A DNA stretch of 64,000 bases, from assembly GCF_000332335.1 (NCBI RefSeq), contig NZ_KB235948.1, positions 4,158,977 through 4,222,976 on the forward strand. Direction: 5' to 3'. The translations under genes were made by a program, and so were the position numbers. This DNA comes from Oscillatoria sp. PCC 10802 (GTDB lineage: Bacteria; Cyanobacteriota; Cyanobacteriia; Cyanobacteriales; Oscillatoriaceae). The notes below the pieces were generated by a model. The model was not told the DNA's origin and ran no database searches. It saw only the letters and a list, made by a program, of their open reading frames with translations. Positions 5,820 to 55,788 of the stretch are shown here, piece by piece (position 1 is the stretch's first letter; each line of letters starts with the position of its first letter).

Positions 5820-5881
5820 GGGAGACGTTAAAATTTATTTAAAAATTTAAGCAAAACCCCCAGTTCCAGACGCGCCCGGTA

Positions 5882-6591: not shown

Positions 6592-6603
6592 CCAAAAACC
6601 ACA

Positions 6604-9336: not shown

Positions 9337-9374
9337 GCGCTAAATCATTAACATTTGAATTGCGAGGTTTAATT

Positions 9375-10379
9375 ATGGTAAAATACAGAAGATCCGTTTC
9401 TCAAACAGTTTTTTACCTCTCCCTAGCCGGGACGCTGGCCACCGGCACCGGCCTGTGGGAGCCCGCACAGGCGCTCCAGCCGGTGTCAGGGGAGAAATGG
9501 CCGGGCGGTTCCCTCACCAGCTTGCAATTCAAGCCGCCGGGAGACGCCGCACCTGGCTCCACCGACGGGGGGGGGACCCGGGGTGATGTCAAATTCCAGC
9601 CGCCGGGGGACAGCACACCGGCATCCACCAACGGGGGGGGAACCCGGGGCGATGTCAAATTCCAGCCGCCGGGGGATAGCGCGCCGGCGTCCACCAACGG
9701 GGGGGGAACCCGGGGCGATGTCAAATTCCAGCCGCCGGGAGACGCCTCGCCCACGAACACCACCGGAGGAGGCACTCGCGGACCAGAATTCGAGCCGCCC
9801 TCCGATGCCGCACCGGTGTCCACCGTCGGGGCTGGAACTCGCAGCGAAGAGCTCTCGCAGCTGATCCCGCTGATTCCGGAGAATAAAATAGGGCGCACAG
9901 TGGCGGCGCGCCCGACATTTTTTGTTTACGTGCCTGCAACTTCCTCAAAAGAGGTATTTTTTAGCCTGCAAGACGAAAACAGAAACGTTCAGTACCAAAC
10001 TACCCTCAAAATGTCCGGTCAGGGGGGAATTGTCAGAGTAACTCTTCCTGCGGACGCGCCGGAACTGGAGATAGGGAAAAATTATATGTGGTTCTTCGCC
10101 ACTATCAATGAGGGAGACATTCTCCGCCCGGACAGTCGTGGGGTCAGCGGGTGGGTGAAGCGAGTGGAAGCCCCAACCAGCAGCGCCCAAAATTCATCCC
10201 TGACTCCTGTAGCGCTCGCCACCTTGTATGCCGAGTCTGGCATTTGGTACGATACAGTGGCAGTGCTCGGTGCGGCTAAACAGGCGCAGCCTGGAGACGC
10301 CACCCTAGCAGCTGAGTGGAAAGAGCTGTTGGAGCAGGTGGGACTGAAGGGGATCGCCACTCAGCCCCTAATCGACTGA
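9375..10379 (+). CDS. DUF928 domain protein with four perfect 20-aa N-terminal repeats
   Basis: ATG at 9375 with signal peptide. KFQPPGDSxPASTNGGGTRGDV x4 encoded by near-identical 60-nt repeats (9530-9790). C-terminal domain as in cyanobacterial DUF928 (family recall, not computed). Confidence 0.7.
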   Translation: MVKYRRSVSQTVFYLSLAGTLATGTGLWEPAQALQPVSGEKWPGGSLTSLQFKPPGDAAPGSTDGGGTRGDVKFQPPGDSTPASTNGGGTRGDVKFQPPGDSAPASTNGGGTRGDVKFQPPGDASPTNTTGGGTRGPEFEPPSDAAPVSTVGAGTRSEELSQLIPLIPENKIGRTVAARPTFFVYVPATSSKEVFFSLQDENRNVQYQTTLKMSGQGGIVRVTLPADAPELEIGKNYMWFFATINEGDILRPDSRGVSGWVKRVEAPTSSAQNSSLTPVALATLYAESGIWYDTVAVLGAAKQAQPGDATLAAEWKELLEQVGLKGIATQPLID

Positions 10380-10398
10380 GAGGGGTTATTCTGAGAGC

Positions 10399-12615: not shown

Positions 12616-12635
12616 AAATATAGCGTTTCGCTCGT

Positions 12636-12720
12636 TCCCAGGCTCCGCCTGGGAACGCCGTCCTGGAGGCTCTGCCTCCTTTGGGCAGATAGGAAGATTA
12701 AAAGCCTAAAAGCTTAGTAA
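12636..12720. repeat. ~88-bp dispersed repeat (family E), copy 1; inverted partner at 15700..15790
   Basis: CGTTCCCAGGCTCCGCCTGGGAACGCCGTCCTGGAGGCTCTGCCTCCTTTGGGCAGATAGGAAGATTAAAAGCCTAAAAGCTTA is ~97% identical to the reverse complement of 15700..15790. Confidence 0.9.
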
Positions 12721-12775
12721 ATTGTGGATGCGTGGATTTTGGATGCCTGGATTTATAGCAATGGACAGTTAGTGC

Positions 12776-12875
12776 AAGGACATTGGGACAGGCGAGACGC
12801 CTGTCCTACGCCTTATTTCCCTAGGGCAGGCGTTTCCTCCGACCCCCCAAGGTCTAATGTCCTAATCAATTTGGC
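12776..12875. repeat. family B hairpin element (CATTGGGACAGGCGAGACGCCTGTCC...GGTCTAATGTCCTAA)
   Basis: Related copies at 19108, 20771, 31216, 32147, 34369 (two tandem), 48995, 49150, 57838. Confidence 0.85.
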
Positions 12876-13072
12876 TCGACCGGCAACTGTCCCAGCCCCC
12901 AGAGGCGATCGCAAGCAGAGAGGAGGTGCCGGCGGCACCGGCACTGTTAGTTTGCCGCCGGCAGCGCGCCTTGAGAACTCTAAAAATTCTCAACCTTCAT
13001 CCCAGAGACAGATCCGACTGCTCGACAATTGTTTTATTATATTACTATTCAACTTACTGTCACCGTTTGATT

Positions 13073-14581
13073 ATGCCTTTTCCAAGAGCGAGCGGGATTT
13101 TGCTTCACCCCACCTCCTTTCCCAGCCCATACGGGATTGGCGACTTGGGGAAAGACGCTTATGATTTCATTGACTTCTTGGCAGAAAGCAAGCAGCGGCT
13201 GTGGCAGATTTTGCCCCTCGGACCGGCGGGATATGGCAATTCGCCCTACATGTCTTATTCAGCCTTTGCCGGCAACCCCCTGCTGATCAGTCCGGAACGG
13301 CTCAAAGAAAAAGGGCTGCTGTCTGAGGCGGACCTCAGCAATTATCCGGTGTTTCCCGATGAAAGCGTAGATTTCGATCGGGTGATTCCCGCCAAGCTAG
13401 CCTTGCTCTGGCAAGCCTTCCAAAACTCCGACCCGAATGCTTCCCAGTATCACAGCTTTTGCGAGCGCCAATCTTACTGGCTAGATGACTTTGCCTTGTT
13501 TATGGCGCTCAAAGAAAAACACAATCAAGAACCCTGGTACGAGTGGGAAGACAAGCTGAAAAAGCGCAAACCAGAAGCCCTCAGCAAGGAACAGGAAGAC
13601 CTCAGCGACCGGATTAACTTCCACAAATTCCTGCAGTTTGAGTTTTTCAGCCAGTGGTCAGCGCTGAGGCGGTACGCCAAAGCTCGCGACATCCTGATTA
13701 TAGGCGATATCCCCATCTATGTGGGGGGAGACAGCGCCGACGTGTGGGCCAATCAGAGCGTGTTTTGCCTGGATGCCGAGACGGGTAAACCCAAACTGAA
13801 AGCCGGTGTGCCACCGGATAAATTCGAGCCAGAAAACGGCCAGATGTGGGGCAATCCAATTTATAATTGGAAGCAGCTGGAAATGGATGATTTCTCCTGG
13901 TGGGTGCAGCGCTTCCGGACGCTGCTGGATTATGTGGACGTGATTCGCATCGACCACTTCCGGGGGTTTGAAGCTTACTGGGAAATACCCGGGGAAGACA
14001 GCGTTGCCAAGAATGGACGGTGGGTGGAAGCGCCGGGAGAACTGCTGTTTCAAGTGGTCAGAGAAAAACTGGGAGTGCTGCCGATTATTGCCGAAGATTT
14101 GGGCGTGATTACCAGGAAAGTCAGGGCGCTGCGAGATCGGTTTGGATTTCCAGGGATGAAAATTTTGCAATTTGCTTTCGAGCCATTGCCTGACTTGCCT
14201 TTCTTACCTTTCAACTATACCACCCCAAACTGTGTGGTTTACACCGGCACCCACGACAACGACACCACCCAAGGCTGGTACAGCAAACTTCCCGACAAGA
14301 ATAAAAACACAGTGTGGCTGTATTTGTTGGGTAAAAAGCGATCCGAGTGCGATGAAAGTGAAATTCACTGGGAATTCCTCAGGCTAGCTTTGAGTTCGAT
14401 TGCCAATCAAGCAATCTTTCCCCTGCAAGATGTCTTGGGTTTGGGTGCGGAAGCGCGCATGAATTTGCCCGGTTCCTTGGGAAATTGGTGGAGCTGGCGA
14501 TACCAGCGCGATGCCTTAACGCCGGCAATCAGCAATCGCCTCAGGAGTCTGACTGAAATCTACGCTCGCACCGGCATATAA
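13073..14581 (+). CDS. malQ: 4-alpha-glucanotransferase (amylomaltase)
   Basis: MPFPRASGILLHPTSFPSPYGIGDLG...WQILPLGP...GNSPY is canonical MalQ. The ORF-track start at 12926 is an upstream extension. Confidence 0.9.
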   Translation: MPFPRASGILLHPTSFPSPYGIGDLGKDAYDFIDFLAESKQRLWQILPLGPAGYGNSPYMSYSAFAGNPLLISPERLKEKGLLSEADLSNYPVFPDESVDFDRVIPAKLALLWQAFQNSDPNASQYHSFCERQSYWLDDFALFMALKEKHNQEPWYEWEDKLKKRKPEALSKEQEDLSDRINFHKFLQFEFFSQWSALRRYAKARDILIIGDIPIYVGGDSADVWANQSVFCLDAETGKPKLKAGVPPDKFEPENGQMWGNPIYNWKQLEMDDFSWWVQRFRTLLDYVDVIRIDHFRGFEAYWEIPGEDSVAKNGRWVEAPGELLFQVVREKLGVLPIIAEDLGVITRKVRALRDRFGFPGMKILQFAFEPLPDLPFLPFNYTTPNCVVYTGTHDNDTTQGWYSKLPDKNKNTVWLYLLGKKRSECDESEIHWEFLRLALSSIANQAIFPLQDVLGLGAEARMNLPGSLGNWWSWRYQRDALTPAISNRLRSLTEIYARTGI

Positions 14582-35877: not shown

Positions 35878-36645
35878 TCACACCCTGGCCAGAGGTTTAG
35901 ACCAAACGCCACTTTCATTTTCTTCGTACTGCCGGCGAATGGCATCCCAGGCGGCTTGTTCAGCCTTCATTTCATCGCTGGTTTCATCAAATGCAGCATT
36001 GTAACGCTCGATAAATGTCTTTTGAGCGTCTTCAGATAAATGGGAGCTGATTTCGGGAGCCAAATCTGCTAGACTGTCGCACCGGCCTGGACAGGGATGG
36101 GGCAGCGTCATGTCGCTGGCAGAGATTTCCTCACCGCCGGCACTTTGCAGCAGCAGCTGAATTTCCCCCGATTTATCGGCGGTAATTTCTGCCATGACCA
36201 GAATTTCTCCCGCTTCCAAACGAGTTTGATAGAGAGTGGCTTTCTCTTCTGGCATTCCCAGCGCCACCAGTGCGGAAACCAAACCGGCACCGGCACTTCC
36301 CGCCAGTGCGCCGCCGGCAGCACCGAGGAGTACCGCACCCAGCGGTCCCGCTGCCACAACCGGCCCAACAAAAGGAATAAACAGCACGCCAACGCCCGTC
36401 AGCAGGCTCAAAACTGAACCGAACAGGGAACCAAAAATTGCGCCGGTGCGCAGCCCGCCCAAAATCACGTCTTTCCTGCTTATAAAGCCGGCAATCCGCG
36501 TTTTGGATTGGAAATTTTTCCCCATCACCGAGATGCGATCCTGAGGCACGCCCCGATCCAGCAGCCGCCGAATTACGCTATCCACTTGCTCTTCTTCCTT
36601 GAAGGTGGCGGAAACGGTTCGCTCTGCTTTGTATTGTTCAGGCAT
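35878..36645 (-). CDS. general-stress-protein YflT domain + C-terminal ChaB domain protein
   Basis: N-terminal YflT-like region, central Gly-rich TM segment, C-terminal ChaB motif [17 protein letters not shown]...[10 protein letters not shown]. Confidence 0.55.
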
Positions 36646-36795: not shown

Positions 36796-38451
36796 TTACT
36801 CCCTTGATTCGGCGGATTGTTCTTCGTGCAGTTTGGCTGCCAGCTGAGTTAAAATTGATATCAAACCGGCATCTTGCCCGCCAGAAGGAACCCCCCGATC
36901 TTCCGGACTGGTTTCTGCGTTCGCTTCCAGCCAGGACTGATAGGCGTCACAGAAAGCCTGGTGGATTTTCGCCTTATTGATGCCGGCAGCCGCCCGCAGC
37001 TGAACGGCGAACAGGCTATCTGCTTTTTGCTCAACACTCTGGAGCGACAGTTCGGCGTCCGTATTTTCTGAGCGCACCTGATTGAAAGCGTGGAGAAAAG
37101 CTTGCCAGTTCATGCCGGTGCGGAAAACTAGATCGACGGAATTGAACGCCGGCTGAAACAGCTGCGCGAACTCTCCGGGGGCGAACTCTCCGCTCAGAGG
37201 GCGGCGCTCTACTTGAAAGTTGAGCAAATAAACATACTCGCAAATGACTCCATCGAGCCGGGTGTTGCTGTCAATCTTCCAATTCCCTATCAAAGCGCCG
37301 GTGAGTTCGGCTGAGGAGAGATCAGCGCCGGAAGCGAGAGAGGCAGACAGATTTGCAGACTTTAAACAGGCACCTTGCAGAGAGGCTTCAGTGAGATTTG
37401 TTTCCCGCAAATCGGCGTGGCTGAGGTCAGCACCGGCAAGGTTGGCACCCCGGAGATTAATGCCGGCATAAGATTTATTCCGCCCAGAGCCGCTAACAAG
37501 CAAATCTCGAATAGCAGGGTTAGCCAGTATCGAATTGCCAAGTCGGGCTCGGTCAAGTTCGCGGGCTTGCAGCCAGCAAGTGCGGGTGAGATTTGCCTTT
37601 CGGAAATCGGTTTTTTTTAGCACCGCCTGGCTGAAATTGACGTCGGTTAAATCAGCCCGGCGGAAGCTTGTCCCGCCGGCAGTGGCAAAAGCAACGGCTA
37701 TCTTGCCAATCGCGGCGAAACGCTCGTCTCCAGACAGAGCTCGCCGGCTCGCCCAACCGCACCCCACACCCACCGCCACACACACCGCAAAAGCCCAAAC
37801 CGCAGTCGAAGCCCAAGCATCCTGAAACAGCCCGCCCAGAAACCCAGCCCCCGTGCCGAGGGCAGCCCCAATCAAACCCCAAAACCACGCCAAAGCGCCG
37901 GTGATAGCCCACGCCCTGCCCCCACCCGCCGCCAGAGAGGCAGCCCCCGCCAAAGCGAGCGCCCAAGCCCAAGCCGCCATTCCCGCCACCTCCCAAATGC
38001 CGGTCAGAGCCCAGTCCCAAGCTAAAAACCAGGGCTTTAGCCCAGCCGAAGCCCCAGCCACCGCCGCCACCACCGCCACCGCCCACAAACCCGCCTCCAT
38101 CCCCCGGCGCAGGGTGACGAGAAAAAAGAGCGCCAGCAGCAACAAGACGGCGACGCCGGGAAAAATGGTGTTGCCTTTGATGAATTGCGGGTTGAGCAAA
38201 GCGCCGGCAAACGCGCCCGCCAGTGTGGCCAGCAAGCCGGACAGTGAGGCCAGGAGTGGCGGGAGGATCGCGAGTGCGGCGGTTTGCCGGCGCGGCACCC
38301 CAGCGAGGGCACCTGTGAGGTTTGCGCCGGTGAGGTTTGCGCCGGTGAAGTTGGCACCCCGGATGTCTGAATGCGCGAAGTTAGCGCCGGTGAGGTCTTG
38401 ATTTTTAAAGTTGCGTCCTTGGAGATTTTGTCCAGAGAAGTCTACAGGCAT
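36796..38451 (-). CDS. pentapeptide-repeat membrane protein
   Basis: Two pentapeptide tracts (A[DN]LxG-type) flank a ~250-aa polytopic Ala/Gly/Trp-rich membrane region. The C-terminal ~120 aa is non-repeat. Confidence 0.8.
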   Translation of the reverse strand: MPVDFSGQNLQGRNFKNQDLTGANFAHSDIRGANFTGANLTGANLTGALAGVPRRQTAALAILPPLLASLSGLLATLAGAFAGALLNPQFIKGNTIFPGVAVLLLLALFFLVTLRRGMEAGLWAVAVVAAVAGASAGLKPWFLAWDWALTGIWEVAGMAAWAWALALAGAASLAAGGGRAWAITGALAWFWGLIGAALGTGAGFLGGLFQDAWASTAVWAFAVCVAVGVGCGWASRRALSGDERFAAIGKIAVAFATAGGTSFRRADLTDVNFSQAVLKKTDFRKANLTRTCWLQARELDRARLGNSILANPAIRDLLVSGSGRNKSYAGINLRGANLAGADLSHADLRETNLTEASLQGACLKSANLSASLASGADLSSAELTGALIGNWKIDSNTRLDGVICEYVYLLNFQVERRPLSGEFAPGEFAQLFQPAFNSVDLVFRTGMNWQAFLHAFNQVRSENTDAELSLQSVEQKADSLFAVQLRAAAGINKAKIHQAFCDAYQSWLEANAETSPEDRGVPSGGQDAGLISILTQLAAKLHEEQSAESRE

Positions 38452-39029
38452 GGCCGATCTTGGGGGGTGGGAGCCGGTGTTGCTATAGGGCAGGCAGCAG
38501 CAAGCGATTTGCCACCATATACTGATCTATGCTATACTTTGCTCAAGACATCCACCACGACCCGAAAACCAAAGGCGGGTGGTTGCTCTGAAAAGTCCAA
38601 AACAGCTATCTAAACCCGATTTCCACTCGGTAGGTGGCTGTGTCTAAATCGCCTTAAAGCCCGAACCCCAAAGGCAAATGGCCTTTAGACTTGATTGAGA
38701 CAGCTTCTTTCTCAAAGGAAGTCACTTTGTCAGGAGTTTGGACGTTGTGCTCGCGGGTTCCCTGCGGGCATTGGTTGATACGCCTTGGTTCTGGAGCTAG
38801 CCTCCTGTGCTTATGTATTTGCTATCAATTGACAGCAATTGATAGCAAAAATGTATCGGATAGCATACAAGCCCCTGGAATGTTTAGGTGCCGGTGTCCC
38901 AGAAAGCCGCGCTCCCACACGGCTGTGCCGGTGAGGGCAAAACTCTTGCCCGAGACTTGGGTTTATCGCGTTCCCGACAAGTCGCTAGCGGAGATGATAG
39001 AGCGCGTCTAAATCATTCGTGTAAATTTC

Positions 39030-39065
39030 AGAACCCCGGTTTCTTAAAGAAACCGGGGTTCTGCG
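39030..39065. repeat. MITE family A core variant (CCCCGG instead of CCCGG), ~110 bp downstream of the HNH gene
   Basis: CAGAACCCCGGTTTCTTAAAGAAACCGGGGTTCTG. Confidence 0.8.
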
Positions 39066-39170
39066 CCAAGAGCGGTTGCGCCAATTATTGAGAACTGCTA
39101 TACGAGGCAATTCCACCTCACCCTATGCACTCTTTTTCTTTTTTATCAATCAGTATAGAGAGGAAAATTT

Positions 39171-39818
39171 TTAAGGCACAAAGTAGTGTTTGAGGATGTA
39201 GGTTATCGCCCCACAAAACGGCGCGTGCTGTCCATTTGCGTCGGGGTTTTCACAGCCTTGAGCTAGCAGCTGAATTTCTTCGCCGGTGAGTCCGTCAATT
39301 GCCTCCAAAATCCCGTCAATCGCCTCGCGGCGCATAGCTCTCAGCTTATCAATGTCGAGTCCGAGCTTGTCAATCGTTTTGACTGCAGCATCTTTTTTAT
39401 CTGCCTCATCTGTTGGCAGAATCTCTCCAGAACCCAGGTAGCGAAAGAAATCCGCACAGTTAGCCTCCAGAGGCGAAACCATAAGCCGCTCATCGTACCA
39501 GTCGTCTTTCTTCTTGCCACAATGGACTGGCTCAGACTTCTTACTCTCTCTCTGGCATGAAGCCAGCAGATTCCTGTACTCCAGTGCTAGATCCTGATAG
39601 TACCTCTGGGGCTTGAAATGTTCGAGATGACTGCTGTCCACCGCAATCCGCATGCCGCAGTAACAGCAGATATAGCCCTGCTCGCGCAGCAACGAATGAT
39701 GCAGATCAGTTTTTACTTCTCCCCGAAGGTCATCATAGGTTGGCGTCCAATTTTCGTTAGCCAGTTTCTTCCAGTCTGCCAACTTTTCTGGCTCCTCACC
39801 CTTTTGAATGTGTTTCAC
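39171..39818 (-). CDS. HNH endonuclease, Septu PtuB-like (TIGR02646-type)
   Basis: CCYCGMRIAVDSSHLEHFKPQ HNH core. GTG start overlapping the stop of the upstream ATPase (GTGA). Local GC lower than neighbours. Confidence 0.75.
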   Translation of the reverse strand: MKHIQKGEEPEKLADWKKLANENWTPTYDDLRGEVKTDLHHSLLREQGYICCYCGMRIAVDSSHLEHFKPQRYYQDLALEYRNLLASCQRESKKSEPVHCGKKKDDWYDERLMVSPLEANCADFFRYLGSGEILPTDEADKKDAAVKTIDKLGLDIDKLRAMRREAIDGILEAIDGLTGEEIQLLAQGCENPDANGQHAPFCGAITYILKHYFVP

Positions 39819-41146
39819 TTGTTGAGAATCTCCTTGCGGCGAATCAGGATATCTGCTCGGACAAACTCCGGCTCATCAGCGCCAATTTCGTTAGCCAGCT
39901 GCTGGCGCAATTGCCGAGCGCCATCGAGATTTCCCCGGTCAATAAGTCGAAACAGCTCAAGTAAATCCTCCTTAATGTCCTGCGGACGATCTGGAACACC
40001 CATGAGGTCTTCAAGGATACGATTGCTGTCTCTCCCAAAAGAGCTTTCTGGACGCTTAGCGACGATACCTTCAGGTGTTTTCTCCAACAGGTAGACCCCT
40101 TCAGGGCGCACATGGCTGACCACTTGCGGCGAATGCGTTGTGACAATAAATTGGCAGTTTGGGAAAGTTCTTGTCAGCGCCGGTATAATCTCGCGCTGCC
40201 ATTTGGGGTGAAGGTGCAGCTCAATTTCGTCAATCAGCACAACGGCGCTTCCTGCGAGTGAGTCTGACAGTCCCGGGTTGGCAATTGCCAGCCTTCTTGC
40301 TAAATCCCCCACCATTGCCAGCAAGCATTTCTCACCATCAGACAGCTGATTGATAATCAGCTCCTCACCTTGTTTGCTCACCGTCATTCGCAGGGGCGAG
40401 CGCCGGACGCGCAGGTTCGAGAACCCCGGTAGCAGGGAGGAGATAGCATTTCTTACAGCTTCTAGTTTGCCATCTCGAAACGCAGGATTGTCTCGCCGCT
40501 GTTCATTTTCCAAATCTTCCCAGTCTCTAAACCATTGGAAAAACATTTCAAAATTGATTGCTTTACCTTGCAGGGCACCGTCATAGGCGTCCGCTACTTT
40601 AGTAATAAGCTTATTAGGTCTTTGCAGGGAGATATCGCCAACCTCCCGACTGACAGGGTAGTAAACTGCCAGAGGTATGTTGGCTGGTTCATTAGTTTTC
40701 CCTTTTTGGCGGATACCACCAGTAACTCGCTCTAACTCTGCCAGGTTGCTGTTTGGTTTTTTGCTCCCTTTTTCCAGAGTCTGGGTGAGAGCCCAGCTCA
40801 CTTCCTGCGAGTCCAGTGAAAGTGTAATTTCGCTGCGGGTCTGGCTGGCCCCATTTTTGATGTCCTGTTCGCTAAAGGAACGATCATCTGCCAGGTCTTC
40901 TTGCTGAAATCCGCTCCGGAAGTTTTTGCTAAACACTTTCACAGATTGCTGCAAATGTTCTCGGGTTTCTGGATCGAATACAATCCGCACCATAAACCAG
41001 GACAGGAGAATGGCGAGACAGTCAAGAATACTCGACTTTCCCACACCGTTGACGCCGATGAGTACAGTAGGCTCACCGGCATCAAACTCCAGAGTCAGCT
41101 CGCCGATCCCACGGAAGCCGGTCATTTGTAGGCGTTTGACTTTCAT
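39815..41146 (-). CDS. ABC-type AAA ATPase, Septu PtuA-like
   Basis: Walker A GVNGVGKSS, Walker B/D-loop VVLIDEIELHLHP, H-loop TTHSPQV, N-terminal SMC/RecF-like head. Confidence 0.75.
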   Translation of the reverse strand: MKVKRLQMTGFRGIGELTLEFDAGEPTVLIGVNGVGKSSILDCLAILLSWFMVRIVFDPETREHLQQSVKVFSKNFRSGFQQEDLADDRSFSEQDIKNGASQTRSEITLSLDSQEVSWALTQTLEKGSKKPNSNLAELERVTGGIRQKGKTNEPANIPLAVYYPVSREVGDISLQRPNKLITKVADAYDGALQGKAINFEMFFQWFRDWEDLENEQRRDNPAFRDGKLEAVRNAISSLLPGFSNLRVRRSPLRMTVSKQGEELIINQLSDGEKCLLAMVGDLARRLAIANPGLSDSLAGSAVVLIDEIELHLHPKWQREIIPALTRTFPNCQFIVTTHSPQVVSHVRPEGVYLLEKTPEGIVAKRPESSFGRDSNRILEDLMGVPDRPQDIKEDLLELFRLIDRGNLDGARQLRQQLANEIGADEPEFVRADILIRRKEILNK

Positions 41147-41286
41147 CTTTTGACGCTAACTGCACGTATAATTTTAATTTTACTCTGTATTAGACCATAA
41201 CGATCTCACCCAAGCTCGCTGCGCGTTCCGCGCCGAAGGGCGCTAACGCCACCCTTTATATCGCTCCAGCATAGGAAAAAATTCAC

Positions 41287-41802
41287 ATGACCCAACCTCT
41301 CCCCAACCCTTCCCCCATAAGTGCCGGCAAAAACTCCGACGCCGCCACCGTGGAGCGCCTGCGCAAACTTAGCAATCTCCTCGACAACGCCATTGGCATC
41401 CCGGGGACGCCTTTCAGCATAGGACTGGATGGCATCTTGGGGCTAATCCCAGGCGGCGGCGATATCCTCGGAGGACTTCTCTCCGCCTATATCGTGTTCA
41501 CATCAGCTAAGCTGGGCTTGTCCAAAGAAACCTTGGTGCGCATGGTTCTCAACATCGTCTTGGATACCTTGATTGGCACAGTGCCGGTGCTGGGAGACTT
41601 GATGGATTTCGCCTGGAAAGCCAATACCAAAAACATGGAGCTGCTGGAAACCAACTTAAAATATCCCCAGGCGACCACAAAAAAGGCCGACCGGTCGTTT
41701 ATCCTCCTGCTGCTGGCCGGTGTGATACTCTTTGTCATACTTGTGGCTGTTTTGAGCGCCATCGTGATTGGCGCGATCGTCGGACTGATCGCCCGCAGGT
41801 AG
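41287..41802 (+). CDS. DUF4112 domain membrane protein
   Basis: GTPFSIGLDGILGLIPGGGDILGGLLSAYIV...VPVLGDLMDFAWKAN matches the DUF4112 core as remembered. C-terminal TM helix. Confidence 0.65.
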   Translation: MTQPLPNPSPISAGKNSDAATVERLRKLSNLLDNAIGIPGTPFSIGLDGILGLIPGGGDILGGLLSAYIVFTSAKLGLSKETLVRMVLNIVLDTLIGTVPVLGDLMDFAWKANTKNMELLETNLKYPQATTKKADRSFILLLLAGVILFVILVAVLSAIVIGAIVGLIARR

Positions 41803-42008: not shown

Positions 42009-43160
42009 TTGCTCGACCTCCCTGATAGCCCAGTCCTTCCCCAAACCCCAAACCCCAAACCCCTATACAAAAGAATCCAGACGTGGGATAATAATCTAAC
42101 TGTTGTCTGCCAATCCCTGATGGTTCCGCTTCCCCAGTCTCCCGACGAGCTTGCTGCTGCCCTCGCCGGCATCACCGACCTAACTTTCGAGCTGCCCGAT
42201 CCAGAAGACGAAGAAATTCCCGAGCCCCAATTTCAGCTCCAGCTTGACAGCGCCTGGAAAGTGTGCGATCGCTTTGACCTGCAAACCCAAATCTGGCGGG
42301 GGCGGATCTTGCGCTCAGTGCGCGATCGAGAGAAAAAAGGCGGCGAAGGGCGGGGGAAAGGCTTCCTCAACTGGCTCAAAGAGCGAGAAATCAGCAAAAG
42401 CCAAGCCTACGCCCTCATAGAACTGGCCAAGAGCGCCGACACCCTGCTCGAAGAGGGACAGCTAGACCCCGCTAGCATTAACAACTTCAGCATGCGCGCT
42501 TTTGTGGAAACCGCCAAAGCCAGCCCTGAAATCCAGCAGCTGGTTACAGAAGCCGCCCGCACCGGCAACCGCATCACTCGACGCGAAGTCCGCCAGCTGG
42601 CTGACGAGTGGACAGCCATGAGCTCAGATCTCCTCCCCGAGGAAATCAAGGAAAAAGCCTCTGCCGGTTCCCTCCCCACCAACTACCTCGCCCCCCTGGT
42701 GCGAGAGATGGAAAAATTGCCAGAATCCCACATCAGCGCCATTCAGGAGGAAGCCGCAGAGAATCCCGACGTCGATACCGTGAAAAAGCTGACCTCAGAA
42801 GCCCGCAGCCTGTCCCGCTATCTCGACGCCGCCGCCCAAGTGCAAGCCATCAGCCAGACATCCGTGGACGTGGAAATGGCCCTCGAAGAAGCCCTGCGAA
42901 CCGGCTGTTTGAACACCACAGCCGATCTGGTCAAGCAGGCGGCTCAGCTCGAGCAAATGATCGCCAAGCTTTACACCACCTGGAAGCGCGTTGGCAATCT
43001 CGCCGACCGGCTCTATGTAGAGACCGGCGCGAGCACCCCCAACCTGCGAGCCCTCCTGACCTGTCTCGACCGGCTCGCCCGCGACGTGATGGAAGTCCAG
43101 CTTGGCGATGGCAGCGACCGCTCCATTCGCCTGCGAGTCCTCTCCGAACCCGATTCCTAA
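42009..43160 (+). CDS. hypothetical protein (acidic, coiled-coil-rich)
   Basis: Long ORF with coding-like composition. No recognisable domain. Start uncertain (alternative ATG at ~42119). Confidence 0.5.
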   Translation: MLDLPDSPVLPQTPNPKPLYKRIQTWDNNLTVVCQSLMVPLPQSPDELAAALAGITDLTFELPDPEDEEIPEPQFQLQLDSAWKVCDRFDLQTQIWRGRILRSVRDREKKGGEGRGKGFLNWLKEREISKSQAYALIELAKSADTLLEEGQLDPASINNFSMRAFVETAKASPEIQQLVTEAARTGNRITRREVRQLADEWTAMSSDLLPEEIKEKASAGSLPTNYLAPLVREMEKLPESHISAIQEEAAENPDVDTVKKLTSEARSLSRYLDAAAQVQAISQTSVDVEMALEEALRTGCLNTTADLVKQAAQLEQMIAKLYTTWKRVGNLADRLYVETGASTPNLRALLTCLDRLARDVMEVQLGDGSDRSIRLRVLSEPDS

Positions 43161-43630: not shown

Positions 43631-44350
43631 TTAAATATTCCAACCGCCCGCGATTTCCACAACTTGACCAGTGATGTAATCCGAATCTGGCGCGATAAAG
43701 AAATCCACAGCACGCACCAGCTCATCGAGAGTGGCGAGGCGACCGGAAGGGATTTGCTCCAGAGGCTGACTCACAGAGGTTTCCGCAACCCCAGGCGAAA
43801 CTACATTAGCGGTAATGTTATATTTTATTAGCTGTTTTGCTAAGGCTTTTGTGTACAGAATAATGCCTGTTTTAGCAATCGCATAGGGAGCGATTGAGGG
43901 GCGCGCAATTAAGTTCTGCGCTCCCGCAAACCCCAGGTTAACTATGCGCCCCCAACCGGCTGCTTTCAGGTGAGGCAGAGCCGCTTGAGTGACGTAAAAG
44001 GTGGCATTCAAGTTGGAATTTAAGATTTCATGCCACTCTTCGACATTAACATCTTCTATTGGTTTCTTAAGGTAGTTGCCCACATTATTGACCACCACCG
44101 AGAGTCCCCCCAACTGCTCCGCCGCACTTCCCACCAAATAGCGCACTTCCTCGGGATCTGTCACATCAGCTTGCAGGGTCAGAGCTTTAACTCCAAAGGA
44201 TGCAGCAAAATCGGCTACTTCTCTAGCCGCTGACACACTGCGGTTATAATGCACTGCGACGTCAAAACCTTTGTTTGCTAAATCAAGCGCAATAGCTCGA
44301 CCAATCCCTTTGGCCGCTCCGGTAACCAAAGCTTTCTTAAGCCTTGCCAT
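43631..44350 (-). CDS. SDR family oxidoreductase (FabG-like)
   Basis: TGAAKGIGRAIA, catalytic YxxxK. Confidence 0.85.
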   Translation of the reverse strand: MARLKKALVTGAAKGIGRAIALDLANKGFDVAVHYNRSVSAAREVADFAASFGVKALTLQADVTDPEEVRYLVGSAAEQLGGLSVVVNNVGNYLKKPIEDVNVEEWHEILNSNLNATFYVTQAALPHLKAAGWGRIVNLGFAGAQNLIARPSIAPYAIAKTGIILYTKALAKQLIKYNITANVVSPGVAETSVSQPLEQIPSGRLATLDELVRAVDFFIAPDSDYITGQVVEIAGGWNI

Positions 44351-44771
44351 TTGTTTGCTCTAAATAAGTTTCAATCAGTACGCGGGTGTAAGTGTTTAGA
44401 GGATAGCGCAATGCGTCTTGTGGGAAAACCCACTCCCACTCCACAATTTCTTCATTGGGTGTTACCTTTTCCGACGACGCTGCGGCGTAGTAGTTGACCA
44501 GTACAAAATGCGCTTCTTTGTAAAACTGGGGGTCGATGACCGCTTCCTGCAATAGGGCAAAACGAATCTCAGTAAGTTCCAGCCCCACTTCCTCGCGAAA
44601 TTCGCGCACAAGCGCAGCTTCTAGGGATTCCCCCCACTCTACTTTGCCCCCTGGGACGCCCCACAAACCTGTCCATTTAGTAGTTTTTGCGATTAAAACT
44701 CGACTGTCAGAGCCGGTCACTAGAGCTCCTACGGTAACAACTGGCAGAAGGTTTCGATCAGTTGGTTTCAC
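44337..44771 (-). CDS. NUDIX hydrolase
   Basis: Nudix box GGKVEWGESLEAALVREFREEVGL. Confidence 0.85.
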   Translation of the reverse strand: MKPTDRNLLPVVTVGALVTGSDSRVLIAKTTKWTGLWGVPGGKVEWGESLEAALVREFREEVGLELTEIRFALLQEAVIDPQFYKEAHFVLVNYYAAASSEKVTPNEEIVEWEWVFPQDALRYPLNTYTRVLIETYLEQTNGKA

Positions 44772-53196: not shown

Positions 53197-55788
53197 TCAA
53201 AACCCAAACAATCTGCCATCCTTATTGCCGGTGCGCGCTACCGAACAGCCGGGCGCGATGTCCCACGCCCCGCGAGAATTGCCGGTCAAATCGCAGTTTT
53301 CCACCGTTCCAGAACCGTTGGAGTCAGCGCACAACCCGTAAGTATTCCCATAAATCTTGCACCGGCGAATCGCAGGATTGCTGCCCTTGGCAATCCTCAC
53401 CCCTGCAGAAGCGTGACCAAAAATATGGCAGCCCTCTAATGTCCCCTGAGCGCTCTCCGTCAGGGACACACCGTTATTCGGCCCGTCATGAATTTGGCAG
53501 CGCTCAATCGCCGGATTGCTGCCCCGCTCAACCCTCACCTGAGCGCCGGCATTGCCAAAAATATCGCAGCCAGCAACTGTCCCCCTAGCGTTTTGGGCAA
53601 TCCAAATACCATTCTGTTTGCCGTCGCGAATTTTGCAGCCCCGGATAACCGGATTGCTTTTGTTAGTAATTCCCACCCCCGGATAGGCGTTGCCAAAAAT
53701 ATCGCAATCCTCTACAGTCCCCTCAGCGCTCTCAGTAATCCAGACACCGTTCTGCTGTCCGTCCCGAATTTCGCAGCCCCGGATAACCGGATTGCTTCCC
53801 CCCACAATTCCCACCCCTGAATGGGCGTTGCCAAAAATATCGCAGCCGAAAACTGTCCCCAAACCGCCCGCAGCAACCCACACGCCAGATGCTCTCCCGT
53901 TGCGAATTGTGCAGCGCCGGATTGTGGGATTGCTATTCTTCGTAATTTCCACCCCCGGAGCGTCGTTGCCAAAAATATCGCAGTCCTCCACAGTTCCCTG
54001 ACTGTTGTGGCAGAAATAGACACCAACATTTTTCCCGCCGTGAATTTGGCAGCGCTGGATCAGGGGATTGCTGCCCAGAGTCACTCCCACCCCCGGCATT
54101 GCGTTGCCAAAGATATCGCAGTCCTCTACAATCCCCTGACTGCGCTCGGAAATCCAAATCCCATTATGCTGCCCGTCGTGAATTTTGCACCGGCGGATAA
54201 CCGGGTTGCTGCCCGAGACAATTGCCACTCCCGCACCGGCATTCCCCCTAATATCGCACTCCTCTAATATCCCCTGACCGTTTTCGCTAACACACACACC
54301 GGCGTCTTTCCCGTCGCGAAATTTGCAGCCCCGGATCAAAGGATTGCTGCCTTGCTTGATTCCGGCACCGGCACCGGCATTGCCAAAGATATCGCAATCT
54401 TCTACAGTCCCCTGACTGTTGCCCTCAAACAAAATACCACAATTCCTGCTATCGTGAACAGCGCACCGGCGGATAGCGGGGTTGGCTCGTTCCGTGCCAA
54501 CCGCTATTCCAGGGCCGGTTTCCGAGGCAATATCACAGTCCTCAAGTATCAGGCATCCCTGAGTCACCCACACCGCACTGTCGCAGGACCGCCCAGATGC
54601 CGGTGGGAGACTGCCGTCGCCCCCCTCTGGCACAAGCCCCCGCCGGCGCACAGTCAAACCCCGCACTGTGGCGCAATCCGCCCGCATGACAATCCCCGGC
54701 GAGTCCCCACTCTCGATCGCGATCTCCCCCACCGGCCCATCCCCGAGAATCCCCACTGGCTTGTCAATGGCAATGCTTTCGCGGTATAATCCAGGACGCA
54801 CCAAGATGCTCGCTCCCGCCCGGGCGTTTTTGAGCGCTTCGCCAATCGTTCTAAAGTCAGCCGGCCCCCATTGGGCCACCACCAAACTCTGTGCCGCTGG
54901 CGGATTTAAAGCAGCCAGCACCCGATCTGCTGACTGATAGCGATCCCTCACCAACTCGTGCAGCAGGTTGTCCAAAATTTGCCCCAGCTCGTCGCTCACT
55001 GCAGCGCCCGGTGGCAGGCGTTCGCGCCAGAACCAGCGATTTTCCACAGGATTGTGCAGTCGAGAGGGGTGAGTGCCTGTCAGCAGGTGCAGGCAAGTCG
55101 CGCCCAAGGCGTACAGGTCACTCGCTGGGTACGCTTTGCCAAATTGCAGCTGTTCCGTCGGGGCGTACCCTTTTGTGCCGGTGCGAGTCCCCGCTTGAGC
55201 CGGCTTTGTTCCTGACAGCTGTTTGGAAACCCCAAAATCAATCAGCACCAATTTGCTGTCGGACTGGCGGCGAATAATATTATCTGGCTTGATGTCTCGG
55301 TGAATGACGCCCCGATCGTGGATAAATTTAACCACCGGCAGGATATCCGCCAAAAGCTCCCGGATCTGATTTTCGCTGTAAGGCCCTTTTAAGTTCCTTT
55401 CTGCCAGCAAATTCTGCCCGTCGATGAATTCTTGCACCAGATACAGCTGCCGGTCTTGCTCAAAGTAGGCGATCAGGTCGGGAATCTGCGGGTGCGCCCC
55501 CAGTTCGTACAGCCGCCGCGCCTCTTCGTTAAACAGGCGAATGTATTCCTGCAAGTGGGCGGGATTTTGCTGCACGTGCGGCGGCGGCGACAGTTGCTTG
55601 ATCACGCAGGGTTCGTCAAATTTGCCGTGATTGACCGCCCGAAAGGTTCGCCCCATACCCCCCTGACCGAGTGGCGAAATCGCCCGGTACAGGTCTTTGA
55701 GCAGCAATTTTGCGCCGCACTGCTGGCAAAATTTATTGCCGGCAGGGTTTTGTGGGTTCTGGCACTGGGGGTTGAGGCAATAGCTCAT
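53197..55788 (-). CDS. Ser/Thr protein kinase with N-terminal zinc-ribbon and C-terminal array of ~16 right-handed beta-helix (PbH1/NosD-like) repeats
   Basis: CLNPQCQNP..CQQCG, Hanks kinase (VIHRDIKPDNI, DFG), then 22-aa repeats GxxVxxxSNPxIRxCxIxDGxxNGxW. Confidence 0.85.
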   Translation of the reverse strand: MSYCLNPQCQNPQNPAGNKFCQQCGAKLLLKDLYRAISPLGQGGMGRTFRAVNHGKFDEPCVIKQLSPPPHVQQNPAHLQEYIRLFNEEARRLYELGAHPQIPDLIAYFEQDRQLYLVQEFIDGQNLLAERNLKGPYSENQIRELLADILPVVKFIHDRGVIHRDIKPDNIIRRQSDSKLVLIDFGVSKQLSGTKPAQAGTRTGTKGYAPTEQLQFGKAYPASDLYALGATCLHLLTGTHPSRLHNPVENRWFWRERLPPGAAVSDELGQILDNLLHELVRDRYQSADRVLAALNPPAAQSLVVAQWGPADFRTIGEALKNARAGASILVRPGLYRESIAIDKPVGILGDGPVGEIAIESGDSPGIVMRADCATVRGLTVRRRGLVPEGGDGSLPPASGRSCDSAVWVTQGCLILEDCDIASETGPGIAVGTERANPAIRRCAVHDSRNCGILFEGNSQGTVEDCDIFGNAGAGAGIKQGSNPLIRGCKFRDGKDAGVCVSENGQGILEECDIRGNAGAGVAIVSGSNPVIRRCKIHDGQHNGIWISERSQGIVEDCDIFGNAMPGVGVTLGSNPLIQRCQIHGGKNVGVYFCHNSQGTVEDCDIFGNDAPGVEITKNSNPTIRRCTIRNGRASGVWVAAGGLGTVFGCDIFGNAHSGVGIVGGSNPVIRGCEIRDGQQNGVWITESAEGTVEDCDIFGNAYPGVGITNKSNPVIRGCKIRDGKQNGIWIAQNARGTVAGCDIFGNAGAQVRVERGSNPAIERCQIHDGPNNGVSLTESAQGTLEGCHIFGHASAGVRIAKGSNPAIRRCKIYGNTYGLCADSNGSGTVENCDLTGNSRGAWDIAPGCSVARTGNKDGRLFGF

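What the first reader, a model, noticed from the sequence alone, without database searches (positions are those of the whole stretch)
39171..41146. Low-GC two-gene ABC-ATPase + HNH nuclease pair resembling Septu (PtuA/PtuB): candidate anti-phage island
- A 443-aa ATPase has Walker A GVNGVGKSS, Walker B VVLIDEIELHLHP and H-loop TTHSPQV.
- A 215-aa HNH protein (CCYCG...HLEHF) follows it and starts with a GTG that overlaps the ATPase stop (GTGA).
- The pair is visibly lower in GC than the flanking genes.
- It is bounded by a MITE-A core at 39030-39065 and an intergenic stretch at 41147-41286.

Architecture and motif pattern match the Septu defence system (ATPase + TIGR02646-type HNH). No reverse transcriptase or msr/msd-like ncRNA is adjacent, so it would be stand-alone Septu rather than a retron-Septu.
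Basis: partly seen in the sequence, partly recalled or inferred. Interest (0 to 1): 0.55.

Follow-up and report, generated by a model that had tools for sequence, protein, structure and literature searches.

The report
Ordinary stand-alone Septu defence gene pair

Summary
Both match PADLOC Septu models over their full length (PtuA1 E=1.7e-155, PtuB1 E=1.4e-74). PtuB passes the curated TIGR02646 cutoff. Both align to solved PtuA/PtuB structures with the experimentally essential residues conserved. No reverse transcriptase or retron RNA was found in the 64 kb, and PtuA lacks the retron-specific N-terminal extension and insertion, so this is stand-alone Septu.

The "island" idea is not supported:
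- The GC dip is small (50.5% vs 55.0%). Two neighbouring housekeeping genes share it, and codon usage is native.
- The "MITE core" is a 35-nt palindrome found mostly at gene 3' ends.
- The cassette sits at the same position in O. princeps RMCB-10, Oscillatoria sp. Prado101 and one metagenome contig. Its synonymous divergence is like its neighbours', and it is under purifying selection.
- More distant cyanobacteria lack it at this locus but often carry 60-69% identical cassettes elsewhere.

The proteins are already in RefSeq (WP_017718186.1, WP_017718185.1). The verdict is a correct call on an ordinary, already known kind of system.

The parts
39815..41146 (-). ptuA: 443-aa ABC/SMC-like ATPase (RefSeq WP_017718186.1, 'AAA family ATPase')
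   Evidence: ORF. PADLOC PtuA1 PDLC00271 E=1.7e-155, covering aa 1-442 against profile positions 1-418 of 421. Pfam AAA_21 and AAA_15 above cutoff. PDB: 8ee4 E. coli Septu PtuA aligns over the full length at 2.3e-37, and retron Ec83 PtuA at 1.9e-54. The top 50 Foldseek hits of a low-confidence model are all PtuA chains. Exact-sequence look-up gave the accession.
41030..41056 (-). PtuA Walker A GVNGVGKSS (aa 31-39; K37)
   Evidence: G31, N33, G34, V35, G36, K37, S38 and S39 are invariant in 30 homologues. K43 of Septu EcB88, in the same motif, is essential for defence (PMC13096335); the correspondence to K37 is by motif, not by alignment.
40328..40345 (-). PtuA ABC signature motif LSDGEK (aa 268-273)
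   Evidence: invariant. It aligns to LSQGEK of Ec83 PtuA. By spacing from Walker B, E272 corresponds to Ec78 Q361, the position where E. coli Septu carries Leu (PMC12819146); this mapping is inferred.
40205..40243 (-). PtuA Walker B / D-loop VVLIDEIELHLHP (aa 302-314; D306, E307)
   Evidence: It aligns to the same motif in Ec83 PtuA. E396Q in Ec78 PtuA and D316 in Septu EcB88 abolish defence (PMC12819146, PMC13096335).
40121..40141 (-). PtuA H-loop TTHSPQV (aa 336-342)
   Evidence: T336-V342 are invariant in 30 homologues.
39171..39818 (-). ptuB: 215-aa TIGR02646-type HNH nuclease (RefSeq WP_017718185.1, 'retron system putative HNH endonuclease')
   Evidence: ORF. PADLOC PtuB1 PDLC00346 E=1.4e-74, aa 1-211. 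TIGR02646 scores 111 bits against a cutoff of 52.15. PDB PtuB chains 9n69_F 1.2e-12, 9vh1_F 6.9e-12 and 8ee7_C 3.2e-8. Accession.
39570..39668 (-). PtuB catalytic core: C51-x2-C54, H64-L-E-H67-F, N83 (C88, H99 and C100 follow just downstream)
   Evidence: H67 aligns with Ec78 PtuB H57, where H57A abolishes defence, and N83 aligns with N73 (PMC12819146). C51, C54, E66, H67, N83, C88, H99 and C100 are at least 96% conserved in 50 distinct PtuB homologues of 24-93% identity.
39815..39835 (-). Translational-coupling junction: AAGGAG (39830-39835), then the ptuB GTG start overlapping the ptuA TGA stop (GTGA, 39815-39818)
   Evidence: In relatives of 43% identity or more whose contig reaches ptuB, the ptuB match begins at the base where the ptuA match ends. 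The overlap is annotated explicitly in the Annamia plasmid and in L031, L033 and L034.
41147..41286 (.). 140-bp intergenic region between the divergent ptuA and DUF4112 genes; presumed promoter region for both
   Evidence: The part next to ptuA is conserved in O. princeps RMCB-10. The consensus scan found no sigma-70-like site here, so the promoter is inferred, not shown.
39029..39063 (.). Perfect 17+17-nt palindrome 108 nt downstream of the ptuB stop, one member of a dispersed hairpin family; possible 3'-end or terminator hairpin, not an island boundary
   Evidence: It is conserved at the same place in L003 and L004. No T-run follows it, and the terminator scan did not call it.

Best explanation
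A stand-alone (PADLOC type I) Septu anti-phage system in the chromosome of Oscillatoria sp. PCC 10802.

Shown here:
- ptuA and ptuB are a translationally coupled pair.
- PtuA is an intact ABC/Rad50-like ATPase with Walker A, signature, Walker B and H-loop motifs.
- PtuB is an intact HNH nuclease with the catalytic His/Asn and four conserved cysteines. The cysteines are presumed to bind zinc.
- The pair is homologous over its full length to characterised PtuAB.
- It is under purifying selection.
- No retron accompanies it.

Inferred from characterised homologues:
- PtuA oligomerises and holds PtuB through its C-terminal extension. E. coli Septu forms a 6:2 PtuA:PtuB complex.
- ATP binding keeps the nuclease off in uninfected cells.
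- A phage cue releases the nuclease, which damages nucleic acid and aborts phage replication. Tail-fibre sensing has been reported for one Septu system.
- The substrate could be DNA, which is nicked or cleaved by E. coli Septu. [quoted passage not shown]
- Which substrate and which trigger apply in this cyanobacterium is unknown.

Evolution: the two-gene cassette entered this locus, between the DUF4112 gene and a pentapeptide-repeat gene, before the PCC 10802 / O. princeps / Prado101 lineages split. It has been inherited vertically since.
For: Family membership:
- PADLOC PtuA1 E=1.7e-155 and PtuB1 E=1.4e-74, both full length.
- TIGR02646 111 bits against a cutoff of 52.
- Pfam AAA_21 and AAA_15.
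- phmmer to solved PtuA chains (8ee4 full length 2.3e-37; Ec83 1.9e-54) and PtuB chains (1.2e-12 to 3.2e-8).
- The Foldseek top 50 hits are all PtuA chains.

Intact active sites:
- Motifs located.
- PtuA motifs invariant in 30 homologues.
- PtuB C51, C54, H67, N83, C88, H99 and C100 conserved in 50 homologues.
- H67 corresponds to Ec78 H57 (H57A is dead, PMC12819146).

Operon: a 4-nt overlap plus a Shine-Dalgarno sequence. PtuB follows PtuA directly in about 50 related loci.

Stand-alone status:
- No RT domain in Pfam scans of the ORFs of 150 aa or more within +-10 kb. The summary scan of the rest of the window showed none among the 25 of 32 families listed.
- No YxDD motif in any of the 50 selected (longest, non-overlapping) window ORFs of 110 aa or more.
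- No RT-like ORF in 87 related loci.
- No Rfam hit.
- PtuA starts at the residue aligned to Ec83 residue 62 and lacks Ec83 residues 266-318. These correspond to the retron-specific NTE and helical-flap insertion (PMC12819146).

Selection and inheritance:
- dN/dS is 0.33-0.42 for ptuA and 0.23-0.39 for ptuB.
- dS is 0.14-0.23, within the range of flanking genes (0.07-0.29 against L004, 0.42 for RmlD against L003).
- Gene order is the same in L003, L004 and L035.

Mechanism from the literature: the 6:2 complex, DNA cleavage and ATP inhibition (Li et al. 2024, as summarised in PMC12640716 and PMC12819146); tRNA-Tyr variable-loop cleavage by stand-alone Septu EcB88, and its dependence on the Walker and HNH residues (PMC13096335).
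Against: - There is no experimental evidence for any cyanobacterial Septu. The literature search found only passing mentions.
- The cassette is not in a defence island, and the neighbours are metabolic or housekeeping genes.
- Conservation at one locus across several species, with native codon usage, is less typical of fast-turnover defence genes.
- PtuA is closer in sequence to retron-associated PtuAs than to the E. coli stand-alone PtuA whose mechanism is best known (188 vs 132 bits over the full length; 90 vs 35 bits over the first 300 aa). Details such as stoichiometry, ATPase activity and substrate may therefore not transfer.
- In Oscillatoria sp. Prado101 a 73-bp deletion removes the PtuA C-terminus and the PtuB start. 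This hints that the system is dispensable or decaying in one lineage, or that the MAG has an assembly error.
- No promoter or terminator was identified by consensus scans.
Confidence: 0.92

Rival explanations
1. The pair is the effector module of a type I-A retron (PADLOC 'Septu type II'). Its reverse transcriptase and ncRNA would lie elsewhere in the genome or have been lost, so activity would be controlled by msDNA rather than by the protein alone.
For: PtuA and PtuB score better against retron-associated PtuA/PtuB structures than against E. coli stand-alone Septu. The second-best PADLOC model for PtuA is retron ATPase_I-A at 350 bits. NCBIfam retron-Ec78 PtuA scores 336 bits and PtuB 122 bits. 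RefSeq names PtuB 'retron system putative HNH endonuclease'.
Against: - Both NCBIfam retron equivalogs are below their cutoffs (336 < 500; 121.8 < 150).
- No RT or retron RNA in 64 kb, nor next to any of about 87 related loci.
- PtuA is 443 aa against about 545. It lacks the N-terminal extension that binds the RT and the insertion that forms the msDNA-encircling flap (PMC12819146).
- The best PADLOC model is stand-alone PtuA1, full length, at 517 bits.
Confidence: 0.03
2. The pair is a housekeeping DNA-repair or recombination ATPase-nuclease (RecF/SbcC/Rad50-like) rather than an immune system. That would explain its vertical inheritance and native codon usage.
For: The cassette is syntenic in at least four genomes or contigs, with dS like its neighbours. 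Codon usage is in the native range. The neighbours are housekeeping genes. There are weak N-terminal P-loop similarities to RecF and Rad50. The 60-69% identity to other cyanobacterial homologues is similar to that of housekeeping neighbours.
Against: - RecF TIGR00611 scores 38 bits against a cutoff of 172, and the Rad50 models 20-32 bits against cutoffs of 700-1087. Both match only part of the protein: the first ~50-85 residues, or aa 258-341 for one Rad50 model.
- The cassette is absent from this locus in all 25 more distant cyanobacterial loci, 21 of which have more than 2.5 kb of upstream sequence.
- It sits at different loci in other cyanobacteria and on plasmids and phage-like contigs across phyla. 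That patchy, mobile distribution is typical of defence genes.
Confidence: 0.03
3. The pair belongs to another ATPase-nuclease defence or toxin-antitoxin family that shares the AAA_15/AAA_21 ATPase, such as Gabija/OLD, PARIS AriA, AbiEii-like or MADS, rather than Septu.
For: The Pfam AAA_21 description is 'putative AbiEii toxin'. There are weak hits to AriA (33 bits), an OLD-family nuclease (28 bits), MADS3 (43 bits), retron Eco8 effector (32 bits) and TIGR04435 restriction-associated ATPase (65 bits).
Against: All of these matches are partial, far below the curated cutoffs, and hundreds of bits weaker than the PtuA models. PtuA has no TOPRIM domain. The partner is a TIGR02646 HNH protein, which is the Septu hallmark.
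Confidence: 0.01

Closest known systems
Septu type I (stand-alone PtuA/PtuB; Doron et al. 2018; E. coli Septu structures 8EE4/8EE7/8EEA, Li et al. 2024; Septu EcB88, PMC13096335)
   Same: A two-gene ptuA-then-ptuB operon. PtuA is about 440 aa with an ABC-type ATPase. PtuB is about 215 aa and of the TIGR02646 HNH type. There is no RT. The PADLOC PtuA1 and PtuB1 matches are full length, and PtuA aligns end to end with 8ee4. The essential Walker and HNH residues are present.
   Different: Similarity to E. coli Septu PtuA is much weaker than to retron-type PtuAs (132 bits against 188.5 for Ec83; Foldseek alignments give about 27% identity). The ABC signature keeps a canonical acidic residue (LSDGE) where E. 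coli Septu is reported to carry Leu and to lack ATPase activity (PMC12819146; position mapping inferred). The host is a filamentous cyanobacterium. The cassette sits among housekeeping genes and is conserved across species.
Type I-A retrons Ec78/Eco7 and Ec83/Eco4 ('Septu type II'; PDB 9E8Z, 9N69, 9KJX, 9NNB, 9VH1)
   Same: PtuA and PtuB are homologous, and these are the best-scoring solved relatives. The PtuA C-terminal extension and the PtuB catalytic His/Asn align.
   Different: There is no RT, ncRNA or msDNA partner. PtuA lacks the roughly 60-aa N-terminal extension and the roughly 53-aa insertion containing the helical flap. The NCBIfam equivalog cutoffs are not reached. PtuB has His at position 99 (49 of 50 relatives), where retron PtuBs have Arg.
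Cyanobacterial PtuAB cassettes (e.g. Nostoc sp. 'Lobaria pulmonaria' CP026692, Argonema antarcticum, Annamia dubia plasmid pANN4383.02)
   Same: The same two overlapping genes at 43-69% identity and about the same lengths.
   Different: The genomic location differs. In 14 fetched loci the cassette lies just downstream of a Tat-signal metallophosphoesterase gene, and in Annamia it is on a plasmid next to a resolvase. In the window it lies between the DUF4112 and pentapeptide-repeat genes.

Membership tests
Septu (stand-alone, PADLOC type I) | PtuA: ATPase of the ABC/AAA_15/AAA_21 type matching PtuA profile HMMs | tested here: met
   PADLOC PtuA1 PDLC00271 E=1.7e-155, aa 1-442 on profile positions 1-418 of 421, and more than 20 other PtuA models. 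Pfam AAA_21 94.6 bits (cutoff 27) and AAA_15 73.7 bits (cutoff 32.1).
Septu (stand-alone, PADLOC type I) | PtuB: HNH nuclease of the TIGR02646 type matching PtuB profile HMMs | tested here: met
   PADLOC PtuB1 PDLC00346 E=1.4e-74, full length. TIGR02646 111 bits against a cutoff of 52.15. No Pfam family hit.
Septu (stand-alone, PADLOC type I) | ptuA and ptuB adjacent, co-oriented, ptuA first | tested here: met
   A 4-nt GTGA overlap with a Shine-Dalgarno sequence. The same arrangement is seen in about 50 related loci.
Septu (stand-alone, PADLOC type I) | Intact ATPase motifs required for defence (Walker A Lys, Walker B Asp/Glu) | tested here: met
   K37, D306 and E307 are present and invariant in 30 homologues. 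Their necessity was shown in EcB88 and Ec78 (PMC13096335, PMC12819146).
Septu (stand-alone, PADLOC type I) | Intact HNH catalytic residues required for defence | tested here: met
   H67 aligns with Ec78 H57 and N83 with N73. Four Cys, H67, N83 and H99 are conserved in 50 homologues.
Septu (stand-alone, PADLOC type I) | PtuA fold and PtuA C-terminal extension / PtuB C-terminal domain interface | tested here: inconclusive
   Sequence alignments run to PtuA residue 441-443 and PtuB residue about 195 of the solved complexes. The AF2 model has pLDDT of only 59. Its top 50 Foldseek hits are all PtuA chains with TM 0.5-0.6. No complex was modelled.
Septu (stand-alone, PADLOC type I) | Confers phage resistance; PtuAB complex with ATP-inhibited nuclease | not testable with these tools
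   Needs phage challenge and biochemistry.
Type I-A retron (Ec78/Ec83; Septu type II) | Adjacent reverse transcriptase gene | tested here: not met
   No RVT domain within +-10 kb (Pfam). The summary scan of the rest of the window showed none among the 25 of 32 families listed. No YxDD motif in any of the 50 selected window ORFs of 110 aa or more.
Type I-A retron (Ec78/Ec83; Septu type II) | msr/msd non-coding RNA next to the RT | tested here: inconclusive
   No Rfam match at gathering threshold in the window, and none at E<=1 in 38300-41400 beyond two chance-level hits. Whether Rfam covers type I-A retron RNAs was not checked. A structured 369-nt insert lies at 38489-38857, but there is no RT.
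Type I-A retron (Ec78/Ec83; Septu type II) | PtuA N-terminal extension (binds RT/ncRNA) and helical-flap insertion (encircles msDNA) | tested here: not met
   Window residue 2 aligns with Ec83 residue 62. Ec83 residues 266-318 have no counterpart. The elements are defined in PMC12819146.
Type I-A retron (Ec78/Ec83; Septu type II) | NCBIfam equivalogs NF041760 (PtuA) and NF041761 (PtuB) above cutoff | tested here: not met
   336.1 bits against 500, and 121.8 bits against 150.
RecF / SbcC / Rad50 repair ATPases | Full-length match above the curated cutoff | tested here: not met
   RecF TIGR00611 scores 38.1 bits against 172, over aa 3-85 only. Rad50 models score 20-32 bits against 700-1087.
Gabija GajA / OLD-family nucleases | ATPase fused to a TOPRIM nuclease domain | tested here: not met
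   No TOPRIM domain in Pfam. The only match is 28 bits to the ATPase part of 6p74.

The most novel reading that the evidence does not exclude
This cyanobacterial clade may be the stand-alone lineage closest to the PtuAB that type I-A retrons co-opted. The clade comprises hundreds of 417-461-aa PtuAs at 60-69% identity. Its members score much better against retron PtuAs than against E. coli Septu, lack only the retron-binding N-terminal extension and flap, and keep a canonical ABC signature residue where E. coli Septu has Leu. If so, it could be an ATP-hydrolysing Septu, possibly one that cuts tRNA, that shows the pre-retron state. It would also be unusually stably inherited for a defence system.
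Probability: 0.2. Interest if true: 0.35.

Novelty: already known. Interest (0 to 1): 0.12.

Why it matters
It matters little beyond annotation. It adds one correctly classified Septu locus to a cyanobacterial genome whose RefSeq names ('AAA family ATPase', 'retron system putative HNH endonuclease') are vague or misleading. Two points may be useful to specialists. First, Septu has not been studied experimentally in cyanobacteria, where cyanophage defence is ecologically relevant. Second, this clade is a retron-free close relative of the retron I-A effectors, so it could serve as a comparison point for how retrons co-opted PtuAB.

Tried and rejected
1. MITE or island boundary. The 39029-39063 element is only a ~35-nt palindrome, and its flanks are not repeated. 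Eight of nine copies lie downstream of gene 3' ends, by my reading of the and 33 positions against the ORF list. It is conserved in sister species. Rejected as an insertion scar.

2. Flanking direct repeats or target-site duplications around the cassette. Only short chance-level matches were found.

3. Foreign codon usage. ptuA ranks 9th and ptuB 18th of 35 genes for atypicality, so neither is an outlier. Part of the GC deficit is at codon position 2, which reflects amino-acid composition.

4. Other defence genes making an island. A PADLOC scan of the other window ORFs found only PD-T4-6/kinase-model hits to one Ser/Thr kinase 12 kb away. These are confined to its kinase domain. That is a generic kinase similarity, not convincing evidence of a defence system.

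5. Retron RNA or other ncRNA. Rfam gave nothing, and there are no tRNA genes.

6. Promoter and terminator scans. Nothing was found in the ptuA upstream region or downstream of ptuB.

7. Structure prediction of PtuA from 30 homologues. The model was poor (pLDDT 59). It was used only to show that all top fold hits are PtuA and cannot discriminate stand-alone from retron type.

8. Li et al. 2024 (PMC12318543) could not be read. Its findings are cited second-hand from PMC12640716 and PMC12819146.

9. A 25-mer from the 369-bp insert was not found in JGI metagenomes.

10. A metallophosphoesterase as a third Septu gene. It is seen next to ptuA in 14 related loci, but it carries a twin-arginine export signal, the gap to ptuA varies from 5 to about 860 nt, and it is absent from the window. 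It is most likely a housekeeping neighbour and not a system component.
Full report
**1. Observation**

The two ORFs exist exactly as described. ptuA is 39815-41146 on the minus strand (ATG, 443 aa) and ptuB is 39171-39818 on the minus strand (GTG, 215 aa).

- The ptuB start overlaps the ptuA stop as GTGA, and an AAGGAG Shine-Dalgarno lies 11 nt upstream.
- Every quoted motif is present. In PtuB they are CCYCG (51-55) and HLEHF (64-68).
- The pair is 50.5% GC against 55.0% for the window, at the 3.4th percentile of equal-sized windows. The dip is shared by the SDR and NUDIX genes at 43631-44771 (49%).
- Synonymous-codon usage of ptuA and ptuB is unremarkable, ranking 9th and 18th most atypical of 35 genes.
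- The 'MITE-A core' is a perfect 17+17-nt palindrome at 39029-39063. It has 8 good copies in the window against none expected by chance. Only about 35 nt is repeated, and the copies lie mostly just downstream of gene 3' ends.

**2. Identity**

- Against PADLOC, PtuA matches PtuA1 model PDLC00271 at E=1.7e-155 over residues 1-442. PtuB matches PtuB1 model PDLC00346 at E=1.4e-74 over residues 1-211.
- PtuB passes the curated TIGR02646 cutoff, 111 bits against 52. PtuA passes Pfam AAA_21 and AAA_15.
- Against the PDB, PtuA aligns end to end with E. coli Septu PtuA (8ee4, 2.3e-37) and even better with retron Ec83/Ec78 PtuAs (down to 1.9e-54). PtuB aligns with eight solved PtuB sequences (1.2e-12 to 3.2e-8).
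- PtuB H67 and N83 align with Ec78 PtuB H57 and N73. H57A abolishes defence (PMC12819146).
- Across 50 distinct PtuB homologues collected here, C51, C54, E66, H67, N83, C88, H99 and C100 are at least 96% conserved. All PtuA nucleotide-binding motifs are invariant in 30 homologues.
- An AlphaFold model was of low confidence (pLDDT 59). Even so, its top 50 Foldseek PDB hits were all PtuA chains.
- Housekeeping alternatives fail. RecF scores 38 bits against a cutoff of 172, and the Rad50 models score 20-32 bits against 700-1087. These matches cover only part of the protein.

**3. Stand-alone or retron-linked**

- Pfam scans of the ORFs of 150 aa or more within +-10 kb found metabolic and housekeeping genes: class II aldolase, HI0933-like flavoprotein, RmlD-like reductase, ChaB/YflT, a pentapeptide-repeat protein, DUF4112, SDR, NUDIX, aldehyde decarbonylase with a neighbouring NAD-binding reductase-like ORF, and AccA. 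None has a reverse-transcriptase domain. A summary scan of the rest of the window showed none among the families listed.
- None of the 50 selected window ORFs of 110 aa or more contains a YxDD motif.
- Rfam and ARAGORN found nothing.
- PtuA begins at the residue that aligns with Ec83 residue 62 and has no counterpart of Ec83 residues 266-318. These are the regions that PMC12819146 identifies as the retron-specific N-terminal extension and helical-flap insertion.
- The NCBIfam retron-Ec78 PtuA and PtuB equivalogs are below cutoff (336 < 500; 122 < 150).

**4. Source and evolution**

- An exact-sequence look-up identifies the proteins as WP_017718186.1 and WP_017718185.1 of Oscillatoria sp. PCC 10802, listed by NCBI under Kamptonema formosum. 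RefSeq names them 'AAA family ATPase' and 'retron system putative HNH endonuclease'.
- The flanking DUF4112 protein was used to fetch 27 loci from species-representative genomes. O. princeps RMCB-10 (L004) and Oscillatoria sp. Prado101 (L003) have the same order: pentapeptide gene, ptuB, ptuA, DUF4112, a conserved 383-aa ORF, SDR, NUDIX. PtuA is 84-88% and PtuB 90-93% identical, like the flanking genes. A JGI metagenome contig (L035) shows the same arrangement.
- Synonymous divergence of ptuA and ptuB (0.14-0.23) falls within the range of the neighbours: 0.07-0.29 against L004, and 0.42 for the one flank computed against L003. dN/dS is 0.23-0.42. This indicates co-divergence with the host under purifying selection.
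- The pair is about 49-50% GC in all three genomes, against 53-55% for their loci.
- None of the 25 more distant loci carries ptuAB next to DUF4112. Twenty-one of these have more than 2.5 kb of upstream sequence. In Myxacorys the ChaB gene abuts DUF4112, and in another Leptolyngbyaceae MAG the HI0933 gene does. The cassette, perhaps together with the pentapeptide gene, was therefore inserted before the genus-level split.
- No integrase, tRNA gene or flanking direct repeat marks the insertion.
- It is thus an old two-gene insertion, not a recent island.

**5. Wider family**

- The large protein search returned 7,876 relatives at E<=1e-20. The nearest outside the genus are cyanobacterial PtuAs of 417-461 aa at 60-69% identity, from Nostoc, Nodularia, Argonema, Trichocoleus, Symplocastrum and others.
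- In about 50 related loci PtuB follows PtuA directly. In relatives of 43% identity or more whose contig reaches ptuB, the ptuB match starts at the base where the ptuA match ends.
- The cassette occupies different places. In 14 loci it lies downstream of a Tat-signal metallophosphoesterase gene. In Annamia dubia it is on a 42-kb plasmid near a resolvase. More distant homologues occur on plasmids of many phyla and on a few phage-like contigs.
- No RT-like ORF was seen in any of the 87 fetched loci.

**6. Mechanism**

Shown here: a translationally coupled pair encoding an intact ABC-type ATPase and an intact HNH nuclease, homologous to PtuAB and under purifying selection.

Inferred from characterised homologues:
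- PtuA oligomers hold PtuB through the PtuA C-terminal extension. E. coli Septu is a 6:2 complex.
- ATP binding inhibits the nuclease, and infection releases it.
- The released nuclease nicks or cleaves DNA (Li et al. [quoted passage not shown] Either outcome halts phage replication in an abortive-infection-like manner.
- Which substrate and trigger apply here is unknown.

One nuance concerns how far these inferences transfer. This PtuA is closer to retron-type PtuAs than to E. coli Septu PtuA (188 vs 132 bits; 90 vs 35 bits over the first 300 residues). It also keeps Glu in the ABC signature, at the position where E. coli Septu reportedly has Leu and no ATPase activity (PMC12819146; the position mapping is my inference from motif spacing).

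**7. Verdict**

The finding is real and correctly interpreted as stand-alone Septu. The 'low-GC island bounded by a MITE' framing is not supported. The system falls squarely inside a known family, is recognised by standard HMMs at extreme E-values, and is already in RefSeq. The novelty rating is 'already known' and interest is low (0.12).

The most novel reading not excluded is that this cyanobacterial clade represents the retron-free sister of the retron I-A effectors, with somewhat different enzymology. I put its probability at about 0.2, and it would be of modest interest if true.

Noticed in passing
window 38489-38857 (spacer between the pentapeptide gene and ptuB): A 369-bp segment is present in the window but absent from the otherwise well-conserved orthologous spacers of O. 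princeps RMCB-10 and Oscillatoria sp. Prado101. It is unique within the window and the fetched loci. Its + strand folds much better than shuffles (z=-4.9), while the - strand does not (z=-1.9). It contains a promoter-like site at 38509-38538 on the + strand and a perfect 14-bp palindrome at 38818-38849. There is no Rfam match, and a 25-mer from it is absent from JGI metagenomes. It could be a lineage-specific small RNA gene or a non-autonomous insertion; this is unresolved.
   Followed up: partly
L003 (Oscillatoria sp. Prado101 MAG) about 4524-4540, orthologous to window about 39806-39878: A 73-bp deletion spans the ptuA stop and the ptuB start. PtuA ends 19 residues early (424 aa), losing part of the C-terminal extension that binds PtuB in solved complexes. 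ptuB loses its GTG start and Shine-Dalgarno sequence. This is either decay of the system in that lineage or a MAG assembly error.
   Followed up: partly
window 2357, 14635, 15299, 31179, 35385, 39030, 53127, 59761 (weak copy at 26615): A dispersed ~33-35-nt perfect palindrome, AGAAACCCGGTTTCTTWAAGAAACCGGGTTTCT. Eight of nine copies lie downstream of a gene's 3' end, several of them between convergent genes. It looks like a REP-like or 3'-end hairpin family rather than a MITE. No T-run follows the copy at 39030.
   Followed up: partly
L031-L034, L036-L042, L045, L049, L062 (relatives of the window's PtuA at 54-68% identity): In 14 fetched loci the PtuAB cassette lies immediately downstream of a ~300-315-aa Metallophos gene, with a gap of 5-8 nt in some loci and 600-860 nt in others. 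That gene has an N-terminal twin-arginine (KRRxF) signal, and a divergent conserved membrane-protein gene lies beyond it. The window has neither gene. The Metallophos gene is probably a conserved housekeeping neighbour or integration spot rather than a third Septu component, but the tight spacing in several genomes is curious.
   Followed up: partly
window 53197-55788 (-): An 863-aa Ser/Thr protein kinase (HRDIKPDN, DFG) matches PADLOC PD-T4-6 models at up to E=2.7e-118, but only over its kinase domain (aa 1-304 of 863). The match is probably generic similarity in a multidomain cyanobacterial signalling kinase, not a defence system.
   Followed up: partly
window 35878-36645 (-): The ChaB/YflT-domain gene lies between the RmlD-like and pentapeptide genes in the window. 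It is missing from that position in both sister genomes L003 and L004, whereas in Myxacorys it directly abuts DUF4112. The region upstream of DUF4112 has been rearranged repeatedly.
   Followed up: no
window 41287-41802 (+) and 42009-43160 (+): The DUF4112 gene and a 383-aa ORF without a Pfam match (49-75% identical across cyanobacteria) are adjacent in 10 of the 27 fetched genome loci, and 3-6 kb apart in 2 more. They form a conserved pair of unknown function, unrelated to Septu. DUF4112 shows dN/dS of about 1.1 against O. princeps, with low dS (0.07).
   Followed up: no
PtuB residue 99 (window about 39522-39524): His99 is conserved in 49 of 50 stand-alone PtuB homologues collected here. The aligned residue is Arg in the retron-associated PtuBs 9n69_F and 9vh1_F. 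This may be a stand-alone versus retron difference in the HNH metal site.
   Followed up: no
window 3420-14578: A cluster of large genes whose products carry TPS secretion, CHAT, CHASE2, DUF928 and beta-helix domains, from the Pfam summary scan of other window ORFs. Individual ORFs were not assigned to domains.
   Followed up: no
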